This document shows, piece by piece, positions 1,986 through 8,408 of a stretch of DNA of 37,672 nt. The notes beneath the pieces are model-generated. The model saw only the letters and a list, made by a program, of their open reading frames with translations, had not been told where the DNA came from and made no database searches. The DNA is taken from IMG/VR virus record IMGVR_UViG_3300043015_000381, positions 1 through 37,672 of that record; one strand, given 5' to 3'. Each line of letters opens with the position of its first letter. The first letter of the stretch is position 1. Source of the DNA: a virus. Position numbers and translations under genes: made by a program.

Positions 1986-3565
1986 AGTGCATCATCTCCT
2001 GCATATGGGTCTGCCATTGGGAACATATGCGTTGTCAGGTTATCGTATCGTAGCCAGCCAGCAGAGCCTGTGTCGCCTGTCCGTCTACATTTAACCAAGT
2101 GTAACTTAGTTGCATTCTTTTTACTAGGGTCTTCTGCCATCTTATCACGGCTAATCAGTATTGTATTGAAAGCAATCTGGTTAATGCTTGATGAACCCAG
2201 TAGATCATACTCACTAACTGCATGAGGGTCTTTACCGTCAGGCTTACGCATGTGCGATACCAGTATAACAGCTACGTTGGTCTCTTTAGCAAACTTCAGT
2301 ATAGCATCCATAAAGTTGATTACTGCACCGTTGTCGCTAGAGTCTATAGCAGCCTGAATAGGGTCTATGATAATTAGATCACATTCCTCTGCCTTTGCCA
2401 AGTAGTTTACCTTATTCATAATCGCCTCAGTGCTCAGCGAGCCTTTGTGGTCAATTAAGATTAGGTTGTCCTTTGGTGCTATCTTCTCCTTCCAGTGCTT
2501 CTCTAGTTTGTCCATGTCAAGGTCTTTACGTTCCATACGTCTAATGTTCATAGCCAAGTCAAGGCTAAGCACATCTCGGACGACTTCACGCTGAGTACCT
2601 TCTAAGAACAGTACACCTGTCTTAAAATGTGTGTTCTCCATCAGGTGATACGCTATGTTGGTCACAATAGTTGATTTGCCAATGCTTGTCAATGCGCCTA
2701 CAACTGTCACCTCACCTCGTTCTGTACCTCCTCGCATCATATCGTTAAGTGACACCCAAGAGTCTGGGAATGGTATCTTAACGTTAGAGTCTTCATTGGC
2801 AAATTCGTCCCACATATTGCTAAGGCGAACTACACCAGCCGGACTAAACTGTTCTGCTCGCCACACAGACACGCTGTACTCTGTTTTCTTACCATCCTTC
2901 AGCATGTCGTTAGCGTCTTTGAAGCCATTAGGCATCTTGACAATTCGTGCCTTACTGTTGAATAGTTCTGCTACGACCTTTGTAGCCTCTTGACCTGCAT
3001 CGTCGTTATCAAAGTTGATGTAGATGCTGTCAAAGCTGTTTAGCCATTCAAAGTTAGTCTTACAGTCCTTCAGAGCCGCTTTAGCGCCATTACGTACGCT
3101 TACTACTGGGTACTTACCATCCATCATCTGAAAGGCGCTGAGAGCGTCTATTTCGCCTTCTGTGACGATTACCATCTTACCACCAGCAGAGAAGCGCTCT
3201 TGACCAAACAAGCCTGTGTTGTCCTGCCAAGCGCCTGTGATGGTAAACTCCTTCTGTCCCCCTTTGCGTACCTTTGCAGCCTTACCATATGGGAATACAA
3301 GATCTGCGCCAGAGAAGCCAACACCGTACCGCTCACAGGTATTTACGTTGACACTGCGGTCTACCAAGGCTCTATAGGTCAAAGCTGCTGGTGTTGGTTG
3401 TGTGTACGTCTTAGTCACTATGTATTCCTCTTCATGTTCATAAGAACCATCTAATTTAATGTTTGCATCACAACTGAAGCACTTACCCCAACCATTGTCA
3501 TCTATAGCATACGCATCTGAGCTATCGCACTTTGGGCAAGGTAGTCCTGATTTAACAAATGCCAT
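1982..3565 (-). CDS. Bifunctional primase-helicase (T7 gp4-like)
   Basis: Zn finger CPKCDSSD...CFSCD. TOPRIM motifs VTEGEIDALS and NFDNDDAGQ. DnaB-like Walker A GALTSIGKST and Walker B LIIIDP. 527 aa. Confidence 0.9.
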   Translation of the reverse strand: MAFVKSGLPCPKCDSSDAYAIDDNGWGKCFSCDANIKLDGSYEHEEEYIVTKTYTQPTPAALTYRALVDRSVNVNTCERYGVGFSGADLVFPYGKAAKVRKGGQKEFTITGAWQDNTGLFGQERFSAGGKMVIVTEGEIDALSAFQMMDGKYPVVSVRNGAKAALKDCKTNFEWLNSFDSIYINFDNDDAGQEATKVVAELFNSKARIVKMPNGFKDANDMLKDGKKTEYSVSVWRAEQFSPAGVVRLSNMWDEFANEDSNVKIPFPDSWVSLNDMMRGGTERGEVTVVGALTSIGKSTIVTNIAYHLMENTHFKTGVLFLEGTQREVVRDVLSLDLAMNIRRMERKDLDMDKLEKHWKEKIAPKDNLILIDHKGSLSTEAIMNKVNYLAKAEECDLIIIDPIQAAIDSSDNGAVINFMDAILKFAKETNVAVILVSHMRKPDGKDPHAVSEYDLLGSSSINQIAFNTILISRDKMAEDPSKKNATKLHLVKCRRTGDTGSAGWLRYDNLTTHMFPMADPYAGDDAL

Positions 3566-4170: not shown

Positions 4171-4367
4171 TTTGACCTCATATCTATACGAATGTTCTCT
4201 ACTTGGTACTGACCGTAGCCAATGTTCTTCATAATGACCATGTTAGTGTCCTCTACCAGCAATGTCAAGTGTTTTCTGAACTCTGGTAGCGGTTTATTAA
4301 CTGTATCTGCTATCTCTTTAGCCTCTGATTCGTTGCATAAGTGCAACACTTCACCATTATACTTCAT
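4167..4367 (-). CDS. Hypothetical protein, 66 aa
   Basis: Start moved to the internal ATG (MKYNGEV...), which has a GGAGG RBS and an ATGA overlap with the upstream micro-ORF. Confidence 0.55.
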   Translation of the reverse strand: MKYNGEVLHLCNESEAKEIADTVNKPLPEFRKHLTLLVEDTNMVIMKNIGYGQYQVENIRIDMRSK

Positions 4368-4513
4368 ACAATATCCTCCAACATCTCCCAAGCGTCATCT
4401 AGGTCTACAGCTTCTTCTTCAATCTGACTGATAATACACTCAGCCTCATCAGTATCTATGTGGCGATCAAAGACTAAGTAGTGCCACATTGCTCCCCATA
4501 GTTCGTTACTCAT
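4364..4513 (-). CDS. Hypothetical acidic micro-protein, 49 aa (below the ORF-track cutoff)
   Basis: Own translation: MSNELWGAMWHYLVFDRHIDTDEAECIISQIEEEAVDLDDAWEMLEDIV. GGAGG lies 7 nt upstream. ATGA overlaps at both ends. Confidence 0.5.
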   Translation of the reverse strand: MSNELWGAMWHYLVFDRHIDTDEAECIISQIEEEAVDLDDAWEMLEDIV

Positions 4514-4830
4514 CGTAGCTCCTCCAGCCATGCTATGTTCTGATCTAGATCATCGCACATCTGTTGATATTCTGTCAAGTCTTTTTTGTCTAACTTATTA
4601 GCCCATTGTGTGAACTCTTGGTGAAACTCTAGACCTGTCAAGCATTGTTTAAGTACCTGTGAAGGCTTGAATGCAAAGCCGCCTACAGTGACTGTCTTGT
4701 AATTGTTGTCAATCCAGTTCTCGTATGAGCTGTAAGTGACATACACTACAGGGTCAAAGTTCTTGATCTGCTTTTGTAGGTCGGTTATCCGTCCCTCAAT
4801 CATGCTGCGTAGGTTCTCTGTCCTTTTCAT
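4510..4830 (-). CDS. Hypothetical protein, 106 aa
   Basis: ORF in the coupled gene chain, with a TAATG overlap with the upstream gene. Confidence 0.6.
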   Translation of the reverse strand: MKRTENLRSMIEGRITDLQKQIKNFDPVVYVTYSSYENWIDNNYKTVTVGGFAFKPSQVLKQCLTGLEFHQEFTQWANKLDKKDLTEYQQMCDDLDQNIAWLEELR

Positions 4831-4961
4831 TAGTATGCTCCTGTGAACTCAATGTAGTAGACTCCATTACTCTCTGTAGCACTGAAGCCTATGCCAAACT
4901 TAACACACATTTGAATCATTGTAAAGTGCAAGTTTAAATCTTCTGTCTTATGCTGCATCAT
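4830..4961 (-). CDS. Hypothetical micro-protein, 43 aa (below the ORF-track cutoff)
   Basis: Own translation: MMQHKTEDLNLHFTMIQMCVKFGIGFSATESNGVYYIEFTGAY. GAGGA RBS. The stop overlaps the next start (TAATG). Confidence 0.4.
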   Translation of the reverse strand: MMQHKTEDLNLHFTMIQMCVKFGIGFSATESNGVYYIEFTGAY

Positions 4962-5109
4962 CACTTTCCTCAAATATACCATGACTTATTACCGCTTCCT
5001 CAACAGCACTAGGAAAGTTTGTAACTATAAAGTCAACAAGCTCGTACCTATCGCTAAATTCAAAGATAGTGTTAGGTTCAGTGCTTATCTTCAGTTCAAA
5101 TGTAGTCAT
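4948..5109 (-). CDS. Hypothetical micro-protein, 53 aa (below the ORF-track cutoff)
   Basis: Own translation: MTTFELKISTEPNTIFEFSDRYELVDFIVTNFPSAVEEAVISHGIFEESDDAA. It starts 1 nt after the stop of the 5111..5479 gene. Confidence 0.4.
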   Translation of the reverse strand: MTTFELKISTEPNTIFEFSDRYELVDFIVTNFPSAVEEAVISHGIFEESDDAA

Positions 5110-5110
5110 G

Positions 5111-5479
5111 TTAGAATACCACCACTGTTCTGTTATCTGCGTCTAGGTAGGCAAACTCAGAGCCTGTGTATGCCTGTTCTGTGTCCTTATGTACAAACGT
5201 GCTGTACTTGTAAGGGTTGTATGTAATGTAATCTACTGGCTCGCCTTCTGTCAAGAACATTTTTACATCTTTTAACATTAATTCACCAACAATACCTGCG
5301 TGTACATTCTTGCGCTGCTCACGTAGCACTCGCTGACGACCTGCCTCGCTTACTTTGGGTTTGCTGTCCCTTAATGTAACGTACTTACTGTGTCCTATTA
5401 CACGTCCTTTGTCCTGTCCTTCTAGAGCCTTAATAGACCAGACGTGCCTGTGTAGATTGTAGTAACAAAAAACTTTCAT
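5111..5479 (-). CDS. Hypothetical protein, 122 aa; first gene of the minus arm
   Basis: ORF directly downstream of the minus-strand promoter at 5518-5546. The sequence (YYNLHRHVWSIK...KNVHAGIVGE) looks like a conserved phage protein that I cannot name. Confidence 0.65.
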   Translation of the reverse strand: MKVFCYYNLHRHVWSIKALEGQDKGRVIGHSKYVTLRDSKPKVSEAGRQRVLREQRKNVHAGIVGELMLKDVKMFLTEGEPVDYITYNPYKYSTFVHKDTEQAYTGSEFAYLDADNRTVVVF

Positions 5480-5517
5480 GGTTCGCTGTCCCTTTAATGT
5501 TTCAGGTTATGTGTCCC

Positions 5518-5546
5518 ACTATATACAGCTATTCAACACAATGCAA
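5518..5546 (-). promoter_or_regulatory. Sigma70-like promoter driving the minus (replication) arm
   Basis: Minus strand reads TTGCAT, 17 nt spacer, TATAGT. An A/T-rich UP-like tract (5547-5570) lies upstream, and the first gene starts about 30 nt downstream. Confidence 0.5.
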
Positions 5547-5611
5547 GTAATAATTTAATTTTTTTTTGTAGCACGCCACTGCCCCTGTACTCATGTACTA
5601 GTACGCTGATA

Positions 5612-5684
5612 CCTGTATAAATATACAGTGCTGTACAGATATACAGTGCTGTACAGATATACAGTGCTGTACAGATATACAGTA
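5612..5684. repeat. 18-bp tandem repeat ATATACAGTGCTGTACAG: 3 perfect copies (5621-5674) plus flanking partial copies
   Basis: Read directly. Each unit contains the palindrome CTGTACAG. The array lies between the two divergent promoters. Confidence 0.9.
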
Positions 5685-5821
5685 GACTAAAGTATAATAC
5701 GAAATAGTTTGACATAGGCTATAAAGTGTAGTACTCGCACGCACACGCATAATAGAAGGTAGCAGTAAATTTTGGTTATAAGCATATTTCAAAGCGATAT
5801 AAAAAATATTTAACTTTTTTG

Positions 5822-5849
5822 TTGCATTCAAAAGTGAAAGCTCTATACT
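5822..5849 (+). promoter_or_regulatory. Sigma70-like promoter driving the plus arm
   Basis: TTGCAT, 16 nt spacer, TATACT, preceded by an A/T-rich tract (aaaaaatatttaactttttt). Confidence 0.5.
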
Positions 5850-5900
5850 TGTAATCACTGGGACGCAACAACGCAGCCCAACAAACAAAAGGTATATATT

Positions 5901-6116
5901 ATGAAACTTATCAACGTTAAACAGACTGCAAACGGTACTACTCGCTTTACACTGCTAAACAAACAAGGGTTTTACCGTATCCGCAAAGTTAAAAGCCGTT
6001 GGGGTTACAATTCAGGCGAATGTTTTAAACAGCTACACTTAGGCAAGCTAACGCTGGCACTAGAGTTCAAACAAAAGAAACGTGATCTATTCCAGTTTGC
6101 AACTAACGCCAAATAA
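5901..6116 (+). CDS. Small basic hypothetical protein, 71 aa; effectively monocistronic
   Basis: AAGG RBS. K/R-rich. Followed by a hairpin terminator at 6134-6155. Confidence 0.55.
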   Translation: MKLINVKQTANGTTRFTLLNKQGFYRIRKVKSRWGYNSGECFKQLHLGKLTLALEFKQKKRDLFQFATNAK

Positions 6117-6133
6117 GCTTAACAGCCCTATAG

Positions 6134-6155
6134 AGCCCGCACTAGCGGGCTTTCT
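6134..6155 (+). terminator. Rho-independent-type terminator
   Basis: AGCCCGC, loop acta, GCGGGCT, followed by TTCT. Confidence 0.5.
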
Positions 6156-6181
6156 AGGTGAAACTATAGGGAGCGTATATC

Positions 6182-6277
6182 ATGCCGCAAATTAACTTAG
6201 AAGACCTGTTTTATATAGTAGCAGCGCTAGCCGTTGCTGTTCTGTTTAGTTCTAGTCTGTTAGGTGGTGCAATATGA
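6182..6277 (+). CDS. 31-aa single-pass hydrophobic peptide, translationally coupled to the next gene
   Basis: Own translation: MPQINLEDLFYIVAALAVAVLFSSSLLGGAI. GGGAG RBS. ATGA overlap with the 6274 start. Confidence 0.4.
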   Translation: MPQINLEDLFYIVAALAVAVLFSSSLLGGAI

Positions 6278-6948
6278 AACTTTTAAGTACAAGCGCAAAA
6301 CTTGAAAAATCTCAGAACGATAACTGGTTAAACTACGTTCTATATTTAGAGCCTAGCGTTGATTACAAATCAATCTGCGCTGGTAGTTCTAAGGGCTGCC
6401 GAGCTAGCTGTTTAGTTAATAGCGGTATGATGCGTATGCCAGTACAGACCAAAGCACGCATTGAGCGTACAAGGCTCTATATAGACGATAGAGAAGCTTT
6501 TATGACTAAACTGGTATCAGAGCTTAACGCAGCACTAAAACGGGCTCAGAAAGCCGGTAAACGCCTAGCAGTGCGCCTAAATGGCACTAGTGATCTAGAT
6601 TGGTCTAGTGTTTACATGCTCTATCCAGATATACAGTTTTACGAATACACAAAGCGAGTACAGATTGTTAAAGCGGTATCAGAATTGCCTAACGTGCATA
6701 TCACTATGAGCGCTACTGAAAAGACAACGCCAGAGCGCATAAAGCTTGTAACTGATAACGGTACTAACGTTGCTATGGTATTCGCAGATAAAGTGCCAGC
6801 AACATACAAGGGCTTTACCGTTATAGATGGCGATAAGCACGACAGGCGCTTTGAAGACCAACAAGGGGTTATTGTAGGGCTTAAGCTTAAGGGGACTAAC
6901 AAGGCTAAACAATCCGCTATTGATACAGGCTTTGCCCGTTATGCTTGA
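6274..6948 (+). CDS. Conserved phage protein resembling the GP88 family; function unknown, enzyme-like
   Basis: 224 aa. Cys cluster CAGSSKGCRASC. Other motifs RLNGTSD, YEYTK and VIDGDKHDRRF. The family assignment is from memory of its pattern and has not been searched. Confidence 0.45.
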   Translation: MKLLSTSAKLEKSQNDNWLNYVLYLEPSVDYKSICAGSSKGCRASCLVNSGMMRMPVQTKARIERTRLYIDDREAFMTKLVSELNAALKRAQKAGKRLAVRLNGTSDLDWSSVYMLYPDIQFYEYTKRVQIVKAVSELPNVHITMSATEKTTPERIKLVTDNGTNVAMVFADKVPATYKGFTVIDGDKHDRRFEDQQGVIVGLKLKGTNKAKQSAIDTGFARYA

Positions 6949-7022
6949 GCTGATAGAGTTAGGCGGTATAGGCTGGTTGCTCTACCATATGTTTAAATGA
7001 TCTAAGGATATAACTAATTTAG

Positions 7023-7054
7023 GCTCTGGGCTTGCAAAGGCTCAGGGCTTTTTT
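7023..7054 (+). terminator. Rho-independent terminator closing the 5901-6948 operon
   Basis: GCTCTGGGC, loop ttgcaaag, GCTCAGGGC (9 bp stem, two G-U pairs), followed by TTTTTT. Confidence 0.6.
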
Positions 7055-7130
7055 GTGCTTAGTGCTATAACCAAATAATATAAATATATTCCCCTTAGTT
7101 ATCCGCCTAAATTGCCCTGTAAGCGCTTTT

Positions 7131-7262
7131 CTATACCCAACTAATACCCTACTATACCTTAGCTCTAACAGCGCTCTAACAGCGCTCTAACGGGCTCTAT
7201 AAAGCTCTAAGCGCCTATGCCAGTATCTATGCCAGCACTATACAGCTATATAGCTCTATATA
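7131..7262. repeat. Helically phased array of about 13 short units, each starting CT[A/C]TA. The core is GCTCTAACAGC x2, followed by variants.
   Basis: Unit starts at 7131, 7141, 7152, 7163, 7174, 7185, 7195, 7205, 7215, 7227, 7238, 7246 and 7254. Spacings are 10-12 bp, then 8 bp. Confidence 0.8.
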
Positions 7263-7290
7263 TGTGAGCACTATGTCAGACTGTTAAGGG

Positions 7291-7324
7291 CTGTATAGAT
7301 CTAATAAGGTCTGTATAGATCTAA
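7291..7324. repeat. Direct repeat CTGTATAGATCTAA x2 with a 20-bp period
   Basis: Copies at 7291-7304 and 7311-7324. Each contains the palindrome TAGATCTA. Confidence 0.85.
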
Positions 7325-7443
7325 ATAGGCTGGTGAGTAGCATACTGTCCCCACACTTTCAAGCTTTTTAGACCTGAAATATTCTCAGCTATTCAGACCT
7401 TGACAGACTACACAGCCTATGCTAGCCCCCTAACATAGCACTG

Positions 7444-7474
7444 TAGATCTATACAGTACTGTACAGCTATACAG
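7444..7474. repeat. Inverted copy of the 7291 repeat (TAGATCTATACAG), fused to a diverged copy of the 18-bp repeat family from 5621
   Basis: The reverse complement of 7444-7456 is CTGTATAGATCTA. 7451-7474 (ATACAGTACTGTACAGCTATACAG) matches 5623-5646 at 22 of 24 positions. Confidence 0.8.
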
Positions 7475-7488
7475 GTCTGTGAAGTCTA

Positions 7489-7550
7489 GTTAGTGAGTAC
7501 TTACTTCAATGTTAGTGAGTACTTACTTCAATGTTAGTGAGTACTTACTA
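7489..7550. repeat. 22-bp tandem repeat GTTAGTGAGTACTTACTTCAAT, 2.8 copies
   Basis: Perfect copies at 7489-7510 and 7511-7532, and a partial copy at 7533-7550. Each holds the near-palindrome GTGAGTACTTAC centred on AGTACT. Confidence 0.9.
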
Positions 7551-7794
7551 GGCTATAGAGATCTGCTTAGGGGACGGGGGAGGGGATTGATGCGCTATTA
7601 TTTTTACTGTACCTGCTCAGACACAAAATAGACCAAAATTGACCCTAATTAGAGACACTATCTATCCAGACTCTGTAGCCTATAAAGTCCTACTAAATCA
7701 GTGGGTTATAGCTAAGAAGGCTATGGAGGAATGCGTGCAGAACCTATAAAGCTAAATAGCAATGTAGATTTATTAAAAAAGATCAGATTAGCTA

Positions 7795-7823
7795 TTGACT
7801 TTTGAGCTAAAATATGATATACT
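7795..7823 (+). promoter_or_regulatory. Sigma70-like promoter for the packaging operon
   Basis: TTGACT, 17 nt spacer, TATACT, then ATC CTATATAGTAAC. An A-tract lies upstream (tattaaaaaag). Confidence 0.6.
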
Positions 7824-7925
7824 ATCTATATAGTAACAACAAACATTGAATACTGTTGTCACCAATCATCAATCACTTTGTATCTATATAACAACTCTTA
7901 ACATATATCATTCCACTTGGAGAAA

Positions 7926-8408
7926 ATGATGAATGACCCAGATAAACCGATAGAGACTACTGTCGTTGACTCTATAGAGCCCGACAACTCTACCAATCCC
8001 GAACAGACTTCTTTGAAGAAAAGAGGGAGAGGAAGACCCCGAAAGACTGAAGTTGCGGCTAAGAAAAAAGGCTCTAGAGGGCAGGTTGGAAGACCTAAAG
8101 GTGATGCCGCCATAATGAACGAGTACAAAGCTCGTATGCTAAATAGCCCTAAGAGTCGTAAGGTCTTAGAGACTATCTTTGATGCTGCTTTGGATGATGA
8201 GCATAAGAACCAAGGAGCAGCTTGGAAGCTTATTATGGATAGACTACTTCCTGCAGGTATGTTTGAGCAAGAGGTCTCTAAAGGTCAACAGCGCAACGCA
8301 GTCAACATAACCATTAGTGGGGTTGGTGGTGAATCTATTAACATTGGTGCTACACAGACCTCTGAAGAAGAAGAGATATATGAAGGGGAGTACCGTGATG
8401 TCAACTAA
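7926..8408 (+). CDS. Putative small terminase / DNA-binding protein with AT-hook-like N-terminus
   Basis: The motifs KKRGRGRPRK and GRPKG, and its position just upstream of TerL. The ORF-track start at 7917 is TTG. The ATGs at 7926 and 7929 follow GGAG. Confidence 0.45.
   Translation: MMNDPDKPIETTVVDSIEPDNSTNPEQTSLKKRGRGRPRKTEVAAKKKGSRGQVGRPKGDAAIMNEYKARMLNSPKSRKVLETIFDAALDDEHKNQGAAWKLIMDRLLPAGMFEQEVSKGQQRNAVNITISGVGGESINIGATQTSEEEEIYEGEYRDVN

What the first reader, a model, noticed from the sequence alone, without database searches (positions are those of the whole stretch)
7489..7550. Perfect 22-bp tandem repeat (2.8 copies), each with a near-palindromic operator-like core
GTTAGTGAGTACTTACTTCAAT is repeated head to tail. 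Each unit contains GTGAGTACTTAC, a 12-bp imperfect palindrome around AGTACT. A 22-bp period is close to two helical turns, so three dyad sites sit on the same face. That is the classic layout for cooperative binding of a dimeric DNA-binding protein. I recognised no HTH repressor anywhere in the genome, so the binding partner would be one of the unannotated small proteins, the terS-like protein, or a host factor.
Basis: partly seen in the sequence, partly recalled or inferred. Interest (0 to 1): 0.62.

Follow-up and report, generated by a model that had tools for sequence, protein, structure and literature searches.

The report
Tandem host SlmA-binding sites in phage
The perfect 22-bp repeat is three back-to-back copies of the DNA site bound by SlmA, a bacterial protein that blocks cell division over DNA, so this marine phage probably loads a host division inhibitor onto its own genome without encoding any protein for it.

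Summary
A perfect 22-bp x 2.8 tandem repeat lies at 7489-7549, far beyond chance.

Each unit carries GTGAGTACTTAC. This fits every position of the experimentally defined SlmA-binding site (SBS, GTGAGTACTCAC, tolerated as GTRAGYRCTYAC). The genome's only three matches are these (expected 0.04). The phage encodes no TetR-type or other recognisable DNA-binding protein.

The array lies 20 nt upstream of a conserved G-cluster/core element, in a 730-bp non-coding hub before terS. In relatives the same slot holds other arrays:
- consensus DnaA boxes (18 of 80)
- NtrC sites
- a parS site
- in more distant lineage members, 2-3 SBS in the same place

The window's hub also holds six gamma-type LexA boxes. 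Tandem SBS pairs occur in 99 viral contigs (chance below 1).

Best reading: a swappable cassette of host-factor sites, here recruiting host SlmA. On multicopy phage DNA this should block Z-ring assembly, as published multicopy tandem-SBS plasmids do. The operator, iteron and pac readings are disfavoured.

The host is unknown and no binding has been tested. An earlier AI note of this scan reported SBS-like palindromes in an SSU5-type phage-plasmid.

The parts
7489..7549 (.). Perfect 22-bp tandem repeat, 2.8 copies (GTTAGTGAGTACTTACTTCAAT), which gives three abutting SlmA-type sites
   Evidence: TRF score 122, 100% matches; direct-repeat family D4; 39-nt exact self-match against at most 12 nt in shuffles
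7493..7504 (.). SBS core 1, GTGAGTACTTAC (fits GTRAGYRCTYAC), with left flank GTTA
   Evidence: Pattern search gives 3 hits in the genome against 0.04 expected. Consensus and tolerated substitutions come from PMC3020112
7515..7526 (.). SBS core 2, GTGAGTACTTAC
7537..7548 (.). SBS core 3, GTGAGTACTTAC
7441..7474 (.). Two abutting gamma-type LexA (SOS) boxes, CTGTAGATCTATACAG and CTGTACAGCTATACAG, 15 nt upstream of the SBS array
   Evidence: All six CTGT-N8-ACAG matches of the genome lie in two arrays, against 1.5 expected and 0 of 100 shuffles reaching 6. Consensus from PMC4471891
5613..5682 (.). Four abutting LexA boxes (18-bp period) in the gap between the divergent arms; the same unit as at 7441-7474
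7570..7585 (+). G-cluster GGGGACGGGGGAGGGG, the start of the conserved core, 20 nt after the array
   Evidence: Alignments A1 and A2. 23 of 114 SBS clusters in other viral contigs have such a cluster within 200 bp, against about 2% by chance
7566..7643 (+). Conserved ~80-nt core (G-cluster, about 20 nt, TATTnTTAC-GTACCTnCTCAGAyACAAAAwAGA). Function unknown. Conserved as DNA sequence, not as an RNA fold
   Evidence: nhmmer finds it in 38 of 80 relatives, always on the + strand and always just downstream of the variable arrays. No covariation. No Rfam hit
7131..7199 (.). Two further arrays with an 11-bp period (CTATACCCAA x2.7 and GCTCTAACAGC x3.5), specificity unknown
7021..7050 (+). Intrinsic terminator closing the small upstream operon; left border of the hub
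7795..7823 (+). Sigma-70 promoter TTGACT-17-TATACT with TG extension, for terS and the structural operon; right border of the hub
   Evidence: Conserved in relatives
7926..8408 (+). terS-like protein with a double AT-hook N-terminus (context only; not the partner of the array)
   Evidence: Pfam AT_hook. N-termini do not co-vary with array type

Best explanation
The 22-bp repeat is an array of three abutting, high-affinity binding sites for the host nucleoid-occlusion protein SlmA. SlmA is a TetR-family dimer that binds each site as a dimer of dimers.

The array sits in a non-coding hub, between a terminator at 7021-7050 and the late promoter at 7795-7823. In this hub the phage lineage keeps interchangeable arrays of consensus sites for host DNA-binding proteins, directly upstream of a conserved G-cluster/core element. 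In this genome the arrays are LexA boxes plus SlmA sites. In relatives they are DnaA boxes, NtrC sites, parS, or SlmA sites again.

Shown here:
- the sequence match to the SlmA site;
- its uniqueness within the genome;
- the absence of any phage-encoded candidate binder;
- the shared position with arrays in relatives;
- the recurrence of such arrays in other viral contigs.

Taken from published work: SlmA bound to its site is the active antagonist of FtsZ. A multicopy plasmid with tandem sites, together with functional SlmA, gives a lethal, cell-wide block of Z-ring assembly.

Inferred:
- The host is a gammaproteobacterium that has SlmA.
- As phage DNA replicates, 3 sites per copy draw the roughly 500 SlmA dimers of a cell onto phage DNA dispersed through the cytoplasm. 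The infected cell then stops dividing.
- This would achieve with DNA what phage lambda Kil or T7 gp0.4 achieve with proteins.

I put about 0.6 on 'SlmA-type sites bound by host SlmA' and about 0.35 on division arrest being the selected effect.
For: 1. Site identity. The published consensus is 5'-GTGAGTACTCAC-3'. G, T, A and G at positions 1, 2, 4 and 5 are required. Position 3 accepts any purine (G to A gives Kd about 60 nM against about 50 nM). Position 6 accepts any pyrimidine (PMC3020112). The window's GTGAGTACTTAC has half-sites GTGAGT and GTAAGT, so it meets every rule.
2. Uniqueness. GTRAGYRCTYAC has 3 hits in the genome, all in the array, against 0.04 expected; 0 of 100 shuffles reach 3.
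3. Flanks. The 20-bp site used in the field is GTAAGTGAGCGCTCACTTAC (10.1101/264192). The window's left flank GTTA belongs to the flank class that dominates viral arrays (GTTA|TAAC 52, GTAA|TAAC 26, GTTA|TTAC 24).
4. No phage-encoded binder. No TetR_N domain appears in six frames and no DNA-binding family in 38 ORFs. Ten near-complete phage genomes with such arrays also lack TetR_N.
5. Host type. Six LexA boxes of the gamma type, CTGT-N8-ACAG, lie in the same hub. V. cholerae SlmA binds the E. coli consensus site (PMC5519180).
6. Same slot in relatives. Arrays lie 0-25 nt upstream of the conserved core in relatives: DnaA-box clusters in 18 of 80, NtrC-type clusters in 5 of 80 (consensus). Lineage members L185, L261 and L201 (terL 58-63% identical) have 2-3 SBS directly before the G-cluster. 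L261 has DnaA boxes and SBS together.
7. Recurrence. Tandem SBS pairs occur in 99 viral contigs, where I estimate fewer than 1 by chance. 42 of 203 contigs with the motif have a related terL. The same layout occurs in a lineage whose terL is only 20% identical and whose terS is unrelated.
8. Mechanism precedent. [quoted passage not shown] There are about 500 dimers against 24-52 sites per nucleoid (PMC3573117).
9. A cultured case. Salmonella phage-plasmid SSU5 has 3 strict matches in 103 kb, against 0 for the reversed control pattern.
Against: - The host is unknown, so the presence of SlmA in it is inferred only from the site type and the LexA-box type.
- Nothing has been bound or expressed.
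- The same 12-mer palindrome in tandem also occurs in more than 120 bacterial contigs, almost all Actinomycetota. The core is therefore used by other regulators too. Those sites have different flanks (CGGA|TCCG, GTGG|TCAC).
- GTGAGCGCTCAC is also the core of the symmetric lac operator.
- The right flank of the window's units (TTCA, and TAGG in copy 3) matches the extended site at only 2 of 4 positions.
- In the published plasmid experiment SlmA was about 4 times its native level. The effect at native level is uncertain.
- A relative with 94% identical terL lacks the array altogether, so the array is dispensable for the basic life cycle.
- Cultured phages in the collection show no perfect 20-bp site.
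Confidence: 0.55

Rival explanations
1. Host SlmA, or whichever host protein a given cassette recruits, does bind. But its role is architectural for the neighbouring conserved core. A large nucleoprotein complex next to the G-cluster would help start phage replication or concatemer processing and packaging. This resembles the transcription-factor sites that flank origins of eukaryotic DNA viruses, or the DnaA boxes next to plasmid iterons. The effect on FtsZ would be incidental.
For: - Arrays always abut the conserved core, whatever their type.
- In relatives the layout DnaA boxes, GC cluster, A/T-richer stretch resembles a bacterial origin.
- The cumulative GC-skew minimum lies at 5-8 kb.
- The hub lies just upstream of terS. 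Two linear long-read contigs of a 93%-terL relative both start about 50-70 nt before terS, so a genome end or packaging site may be close by.
Against: - The stretch after the G-cluster is not unusually easy to melt (-50 against a genome mean of -53.4 kcal/mol per 40 nt).
- DnaA boxes occur in both orientations relative to the core.
- LexA, SlmA, NtrC and DnaA share no unwinding activity, yet they replace one another.
- A second array cluster sits 1.8 kb away, in the divergent-promoter gap and without a core.
- The GC skew is confounded by the switch in transcription direction.
Confidence: 0.2
2. The units are sites for a different dimeric regulator that shares the GTGAGTACTCAC core, for example another host TetR- or LacI-type protein or an unrecognised small phage protein. 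They would act as a regulatory element, such as an operator or a roadblock, and not through SlmA.
For: - The same core in tandem is widespread in Actinomycetota genomes and occurs in the symmetric lac operator.
- About 20 small phage ORFs have no family assignment.
Against: - The flanks match the E. coli-type extended SBS class, not the actinobacterial class.
- The array lies 246 nt from the nearest promoter.
- No TetR_N domain is present in this genome or in ten other array-bearing phage genomes.
- It occurs together with other consensus host-factor sites typical of Proteobacteria.
Confidence: 0.13
3. The repeats would be cooperative operator or iteron sites for a phage-encoded protein: the 71-aa basic product, the terS-like protein or a Rep-like initiator. 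They would control late transcription, replication initiation or pac recognition.
For: - A 22-bp spacing of direct repeats is typical of plasmid iterons and of phage lambda ori (my own knowledge).
- The position is upstream of terS.
Against: - The array is absent from relatives that keep the same terS-like N-terminus, the replication genes and homologues of the 71-aa protein.
- No Rep or HTH protein was found.
- There is no adjacent easily melted region.
- The array overlaps no promoter.
Confidence: 0.06
4. A recent, neutral slippage duplication in a fast-evolving non-coding region, with no function. The match to the SlmA site would be coincidence.
For: - The copies are perfectly identical, as after a recent expansion.
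- The hub turns over quickly between relatives.
- Assemblies break inside it.
Against: - I estimate the chance that a random 22-mer contains GTRAGYRCTYAC at about 1e-5.
- The same site type recurs in the same slot in other lineage members and in 99 viral contigs.
- The neighbouring arrays are also consensus host-factor sites.
Confidence: 0.06

Closest known systems
SlmA-binding sites (SBS) of E. coli and V. cholerae chromosomes
   Same: The 12-bp palindromic core meets all published positional requirements. The left flank is of the same class as the 20-bp extended site. The array lies outside promoters, as chromosomal sites do in E. coli.
   Different: Chromosomal sites are dispersed: 24-52 in 4.6 Mb, and 79 in V. 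cholerae. Here three lie in 61 bp on a 37.5-kb phage genome, abutting at a 22-bp period and next to other host-factor arrays. Binding has not been tested.
Laboratory multicopy plasmid carrying two tandem SBS (pUC-2xSBS, pHC534; Cho and Bernhardt)
   Same: Tandem sites on a multicopy replicon. In the published case this gives a global, SlmA-dependent block of Z-ring assembly.
   Different: That is an engineered construct, tested with SlmA at about 4 times its native level. This is a natural phage element with three sites, and its copy number and effect are unknown.
Phage-encoded protein inhibitors of FtsZ (lambda Kil; T7 gp0.4)
   Same: The proposed outcome is the same: arrest of host division during infection (Kil: PMC3961180, listed; gp0.4: my own knowledge).
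   Different: Those are proteins that act on FtsZ or ZipA directly. Here the proposed agent is non-coding DNA that activates a host inhibitor.
DnaA-titrating and DnaA-binding clusters (datA; DnaA boxes in plasmid and P1 origins) and use of host LexA by phages (CTXphi, GIL01, coliphage 186)
   Same: Mobile elements or chromosomes carry clustered consensus sites for host regulators. Relatives of this phage carry dense DnaA-box arrays, and this phage carries LexA boxes. The comparison systems are cited from my own knowledge.
   Different: In the known cases the sites overlap promoters or belong to a defined origin. Here the arrays are interchangeable between close relatives, are maximally packed, and overlap no promoter.
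Iterons of plasmid and lambdoid origins
   Same: Direct repeats at a spacing of about 22 bp, each with internal dyad symmetry.
   Different: There is no cognate initiator gene, no adjacent unwinding element, and no conservation among relatives that share the replication genes.

Membership tests
SlmA-binding site (SBS) | 12-bp palindrome GTGAGTACTCAC with G, T, A, G at positions 1, 2, 4, 5 of each half, a purine at 3 and a pyrimidine at 6 | tested here: met
   All three units read GTGAGT|ACTTAC, so the half-sites are GTGAGT and GTAAGT. Rules from PMC3020112. Pattern hits.
SlmA-binding site (SBS) | Extended 20-bp site GTAA-core-TTAC, recognised by a dimer of dimers | tested here: inconclusive
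   The left flank GTTA is in the GT[AT]A class that dominates viral arrays and is one base from GTAA. The right flank is TTCA (copies 1 and 2) or TAGG (copy 3), which matches at only 2 of 4 positions.
SlmA-binding site (SBS) | Bound by SlmA in vitro or in vivo | not testable with these tools
   Needs EMSA, fluorescence polarisation or ChIP.
SlmA-binding site (SBS) | The cell in which the DNA resides encodes SlmA | not testable with these tools
   The host is unknown and no cultured relative exists. Indirect support comes from gamma-type LexA boxes in the same hub. The phage itself has no TetR_N domain.
Plasmid or phage origin iterons | Tandem direct repeats of 17-22 bp at a spacing of about 22 bp | tested here: met
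   Period 22, 2.8 copies.
Plasmid or phage origin iterons | A cognate initiator encoded by the element, co-varying with the repeats | tested here: not met
   No Rep or HTH family was found. Relatives with the same replication genes, terS-like protein and homologues of the 71-aa protein carry other arrays.
Plasmid or phage origin iterons | An adjacent A/T-rich unwinding element | tested here: not met
   40-nt duplex stability next to the array and G-cluster is -47 to -57 kcal/mol, against a genome mean of -53.4. The least stable windows are at the promoters.
Phage repressor operators (CI/Cro type) | Dyad sites overlapping or flanking the -35/-10 of the regulated promoter, with a repressor gene in the element | tested here: not met
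   The nearest promoter-like site starts 246 nt downstream. No repressor-like protein was found.
TerS recognition repeats (pac / cosB) | The repeats co-vary with the DNA-binding domain of the small terminase | tested here: not met
   Double AT-hook N-termini are nearly identical in relatives with DnaA-type arrays (L022) and NtrC-type arrays (L019).

The most novel reading that the evidence does not exclude
The hub is a protein-free takeover device. Phages of this very abundant marine lineage, and of at least one unrelated lineage, would carry swappable, maximally packed arrays of consensus sites for host chromosome and cell-cycle proteins next to a conserved element close to the packaging genes. 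The proteins are DnaA, SlmA, LexA, ParB and NtrC. As the genome multiplies, the arrays would sequester or activate these proteins. The SlmA array would arrest division through DNA-activated SlmA. DnaA arrays would stop host re-initiation. LexA arrays would derepress the SOS response. Each strain would pick a different set of these arrays.
Probability: 0.3. Interest if true: 0.9.

Novelty: new variant of a known kind. Interest (0 to 1): 0.74.

Why it matters
SlmA sites are known only as dispersed chromosomal landmarks that keep the division ring off the nucleoid. Finding them as dense tandem arrays on phage genomes suggests that phages can manipulate the host cell cycle with non-coding DNA alone. 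Such arrays occur here, in other members of a lineage with thousands of metagenomic relatives, and in 99 viral contigs overall.

The only precedent is a laboratory plasmid, which shows that the mechanism is physically possible.

The wider pattern gives a directly testable model for the repeat-rich 'junk' regions that many podovirus genomes carry near their packaging genes. That pattern is interchangeable arrays of DnaA, LexA, NtrC, ParB and SlmA sites in one slot. The arrays also offer a sequence-only clue to the host of uncultured phages, because the type of LexA box and the presence of SlmA, ParB or NtrC sites narrow the host clade.

Tried and rejected
- Nucleotide similarity of the hub to cultured phages: none.
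- The exact 22-mer in viral contigs, and a 34-mer in metagenome contigs: none.
- Identical-sequence contigs from other samples (L083, L084, L085) stop at or inside the array or at the 10-bp repeat at 7619-7644. I read these as assembly-graph breaks at tandem repeats, not as evidence of a genome end.
- DnaA boxes in the window: none.
- Rfam families in the hub: none credible.
- Conserved RNA fold in the core: none.
- A sigma-70 or sigma-54 promoter in the core: not found by the scan or by eye.
- An easily melted region next to the G-cluster: not found.
- Co-variation of array type with terS, the 71-aa protein or GP88: none.
- Host assignment failed by every route. Cultured relatives are below 36% identity. 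All close TerL homologues are metagenomic. The records labelled 'ncbi' are metagenome assemblies.
- Perfect 20-bp SBS in cultured phages by BLAST: none, at limited sensitivity.
It therefore gave no view of Proteobacteria. It did reveal a look-alike operator family with different flanks.
- The records behind L412-L414 could not be searched whole.
- I considered Xanthomonas-type LexA (TTAG-N6-TACTA), CRP, FNR, TrpR, Fis and IHF consensus sites for the unit, from memory. I rejected them on spacing or key positions.

Full report
**What the window is.** The window is a complete IMG/VR virus record. It is 37,672 bp with a 127-bp end overlap, which indicates a circular assembly.
- The minus arm runs from 5479 to 1 and from 37672 to 29506. 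It carries early and replication genes: an L5 gp82-like protein, primase-helicase, a T5orf172 protein, DNA polymerase, exonuclease, MazG-like, glutaredoxin, ThyX, and the large and small subunits of ribonucleotide reductase.
- The plus arm starts with a 71-aa basic ORF and a GP88-like protein, closed by a terminator at 7021-7050. After a non-coding stretch comes a near-consensus sigma-70 promoter at 7795-7823. It is followed by an AT-hook terS-like gene, lysozyme, terL, portal, capsid and tail genes.
- No cultured phage is close: identity is below 36% for primase-helicase and about 23% for portal.
- The lineage is very abundant in metagenomes. At least 7,995 TerL homologues reach E below 1e-60, all from metagenomic sources.

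- TRF gives 7489-7549, period 22, 2.8 copies, 100% matches, score 122. This is the second-highest score in the genome.
- The exact self-match is 39 nt, against at most 12 nt in shuffled genomes.
- The near-palindrome alone is only mildly unusual, with p about 0.03-0.09.

**The array is one of about seven short arrays in the gap.** Their periods are 8 to 22 bp.

**What the unit is.**
- A search of viral contigs with TTAGTGAGTACTNAC returned many contigs. A large subset carry clusters of the perfect palindrome TTAGTGAGT|ACTCACTAA in non-coding gaps.
- Its core, GTGAGTACTCAC, is the SlmA-binding site defined by REPSA and ChIP-seq. G, T, A and G at positions 1, 2, 4 and 5 are required. Position 3 takes any purine (G to A gives Kd about 60 nM against about 50 nM). 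Position 6 takes any pyrimidine (PMC3020112).
- The window's GTGAGTACTTAC has half-sites GTGAGT and GTAAGT, so it satisfies every rule.
- The degenerate pattern GTRAGYRCTYAC hits the genome three times, all in the array. The expectation is 0.04, and 0 of 100 shuffles reach three.
- The 20-bp form used in the field is GTAAGTGAGCGCTCACTTAC. The window's left flank GTTA belongs to the flank class that dominates viral arrays. The right flank matches at only 2 of 4 positions.
- A period of 22 bp is therefore one extended site plus 2 bp, which is the tightest possible packing. It is also the shortest common spacing in other viral arrays, where peaks lie at 22, 29-30 and 42 bp.

**Who binds it.**
- The phage encodes no TetR_N domain in any frame.
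- No recognisable DNA-binding family appears among 38 ORFs scanned. The exception is the AT-hooks of the terS-like protein.
- The terS-like N-terminus is nearly identical in relatives with quite different arrays.
- Homologues of the 71-aa protein occur in relatives that lack the site.
- Ten near-complete genomes of other array-bearing phages also lack TetR_N.
- A host protein is therefore the economical partner.
- The hub itself points to the host type. All six CTGT-N8-ACAG matches of the genome form two abutting arrays, four at 5613-5682 and two at 7441-7474. The expectation is 1.5, and 0 of 100 shuffles reach six. This is the gammaproteobacterial SOS box (PMC4471891).
- V. cholerae SlmA binds the E. 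coli consensus site.

**Comparative anatomy.**
- Nucleotide conservation in the hub is confined to the late promoter and to an ~80-nt core at 7566-7643. The core has the form GGGGaCGGGGGAGGGG, about 20 nt, then TATTnTTAC-GTACCTnCTCAGAyACAAAAwAGA.
- The core is present in 38 of 80 relatives, always in the same orientation. It has no conserved RNA fold and no Rfam match.
- Directly upstream of the core, by 0-25 nt, every relative has an array, but the unit differs.
- In 18 of 80 relatives the unit is GTTATCCACAG, a perfect DnaA box, at an 11-bp period and in either orientation.
- In 5 of 80 it is TGCACC-N5-GGTGCA, the NtrC consensus.
- L020 has a perfect parS palindrome among its DnaA boxes. L032 has LexA boxes.
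- The DnaA-type relatives L023 and L027 carry a second DnaA cluster in the divergent-promoter gap. The window carries its second LexA cluster in the same gap.
- The window's SBS array ends 20 nt before the G-cluster, so it lies in this same slot.
- More distant lineage members (L185, L261 and L201; terL 58-63% identical) have 2-3 SBS abutting the G-cluster. L261 combines DnaA boxes and SBS.
- A relative with 94% identical terL (L414) keeps the core and promoter but has neither SBS nor LexA boxes. The cassettes therefore turn over fast and are accessory.

**Recurrence beyond the lineage.**
- Tandem SBS pairs (GTGAGTACTYAC, 6-30 nt, GTRAGYRCTYAC) occur in 99 viral contigs. I estimate fewer than one by chance.
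- Of 203 contigs with the motif, 42 have a terL related to the window's.
- Others, such as L142, L172 and L179, belong to a lineage whose terL is only 20% identical and whose terS is unrelated. They show the same order: SBS array, G-cluster, terS.
- 23 of 114 SBS clusters have a strict G/C cluster within 200 bp, against about 2% by chance.
- NtrC-type clusters (24 contigs) and DnaA clusters (9 contigs) co-occur in these contigs; shuffles give 0.
- The cultured Salmonella phage-plasmid SSU5 has three strict matches in 103 kb, against 0 for the reversed control pattern. This partly checks an earlier AI note of this scan.

**A caution.** The same tandem 12-mer occurs in more than 120 bacterial contigs, nearly all Actinomycetota with GC about 0.70. 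Their flanks differ (CGGA|TCCG, GTGG|TCAC), whereas viral arrays carry E. coli-type flanks. GTGAGCGCTCAC is also the core of the symmetric lac operator. The core is therefore not exclusive to SlmA. The assignment rests on the flanks, the companion sites and the lack of a phage-encoded binder.

**Mechanism.**
- Published work shows that SlmA bound to its site is the active FtsZ antagonist.
[quoted passage not shown] A nucleoid has about 500 SlmA dimers and 24-52 sites (PMC3573117).
- A replicating phage genome with three sites is the natural counterpart of that plasmid.
- I infer that the array relocates and activates host SlmA on phage DNA and so stops division during infection.
- That experiment used about 4 times the native SlmA level, so the strength of the effect at native level is open.
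- The main rival keeps SlmA binding but assigns the complex an architectural role for the adjacent core, in replication or packaging. Supporting it are the constant adjacency to the core and the origin-like layout in the DnaA-type relatives. Against it are the lack of an easily melted stretch, the DnaA boxes in both orientations, and the interchangeability of proteins with unrelated activities.
- The operator, iteron and pac-repeat readings each fail a defining feature.

**Novelty.** I found no paper describing SlmA sites on phage genomes. SBS as such are known. Dense phage-borne arrays, as part of an interchangeable hub of host-factor sites, appear to be undescribed.

**Limits.** The host is unknown. 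No binding or phenotype data exist. The functions of the core and of the 11-bp arrays at 7131-7199 remain unassigned.

Noticed in passing
window 5613-5682 and 7441-7474: The 18-bp 'palindromic' repeat is an array of abutting gamma-type LexA (SOS) boxes: four copies in the first cluster and two in the second. CTGTATAAATATACAG matches 15 of 16 positions of the E. coli consensus as I recall it. All six CTGT-N8-ACAG matches of the genome lie in these two clusters, and neither cluster overlaps a predicted promoter.
   Followed up: partly
window 7566-7643; relatives L003-L082: A conserved ~80-nt DNA element (G-cluster plus GTACCTnCTCAGAyACAAAAwAGA) lies about 300 bp upstream of terS in 38 of 80 relatives. 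It has no RNA fold and no Rfam match. A similar G-cluster before terS also occurs in an unrelated lineage (L142, L172, L179 and phage DSL-LC05, L410 2780-2805). It is a candidate packaging or replication signal.
   Followed up: partly
L003, L015, L020, L022, L023, L025-L027, L031, L035, L037, L042, L046, L047, L055-L057, L068 (about 1-2 kb upstream of terL): Relatives carry 3-11 perfect DnaA boxes (GTTATCCACAG) at an 11-bp period, in either orientation, directly before the core. L023 and L027 have a second cluster in the divergent-promoter gap.
   Followed up: partly
L019, L029, L033, L015, L025; also L123, L153: These loci carry arrays of TGCACC-N5-GGTGCA, the NtrC enhancer consensus, in the same slot. 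In L123 and L153 they are interleaved with SlmA-type sites.
   Followed up: partly
L020, about 3250-3290: A perfect parS palindrome, TGTTTCACGTGAAACA, lies among DnaA boxes in the hub of a relative.
   Followed up: no
window 7131-7199 and 7285-7324: Further arrays of unknown specificity: CTATACCCAA x2.7, GCTCTAACAGC x3.5 (both with an 11-bp period) and TAAGGGCTGTATAGATCTAA x2. L414 has GTTGCTGGTTA x3 in the equivalent region.
   Followed up: no
L412 and L413 (starts of the contigs); equivalent to window about 7866-7884: Two linear long-read contigs come from different samples of a relative with 93% identical terL. One is 37,026 bp, which is full genome length. Both begin 18 nt apart, about 50-70 nt upstream of the terS start codon. 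This may mark a physical genome end or packaging cut, and would put the hub at the other end of the virion DNA.
   Followed up: partly
window 7926-8408: The terS-like protein has two AT-hook motifs (RGRPRK and VGRPKG) at its N-terminus. They are conserved across relatives. No terminase small-subunit family matches it.
   Followed up: partly
L290-L369 (bacterial genome contigs): Tandem pairs of the same 12-bp palindrome, but with CGGA|TCCG or GTGG|TCAC flanks, are common in Streptomyces, Actinomadura, Nocardia and related genomes. Paractinoplanes lichenicola has arrays with up to 8 sites. This is probably an operator family of an actinobacterial regulator.
   Followed up: no
L083, L084, L085 compared with window 4323-7489, 5654-7518 and 7631 onward: Contigs 100% identical to the window, from two other samples, end at or inside the 18-bp, 22-bp and 10-bp tandem repeats. 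The same phage strain is therefore present in other samples, but its hub is not assembled there.
   Followed up: yes
W01 = NC_018843.1 (Salmonella phage SSU5) 2035-2046, 27478-27489, 78713-78724: Three strict SBS-pattern matches occur in a cultured phage-plasmid of a host that has SlmA. One lies immediately after the terL stop codon. The reversed control pattern gives none.
   Followed up: partly
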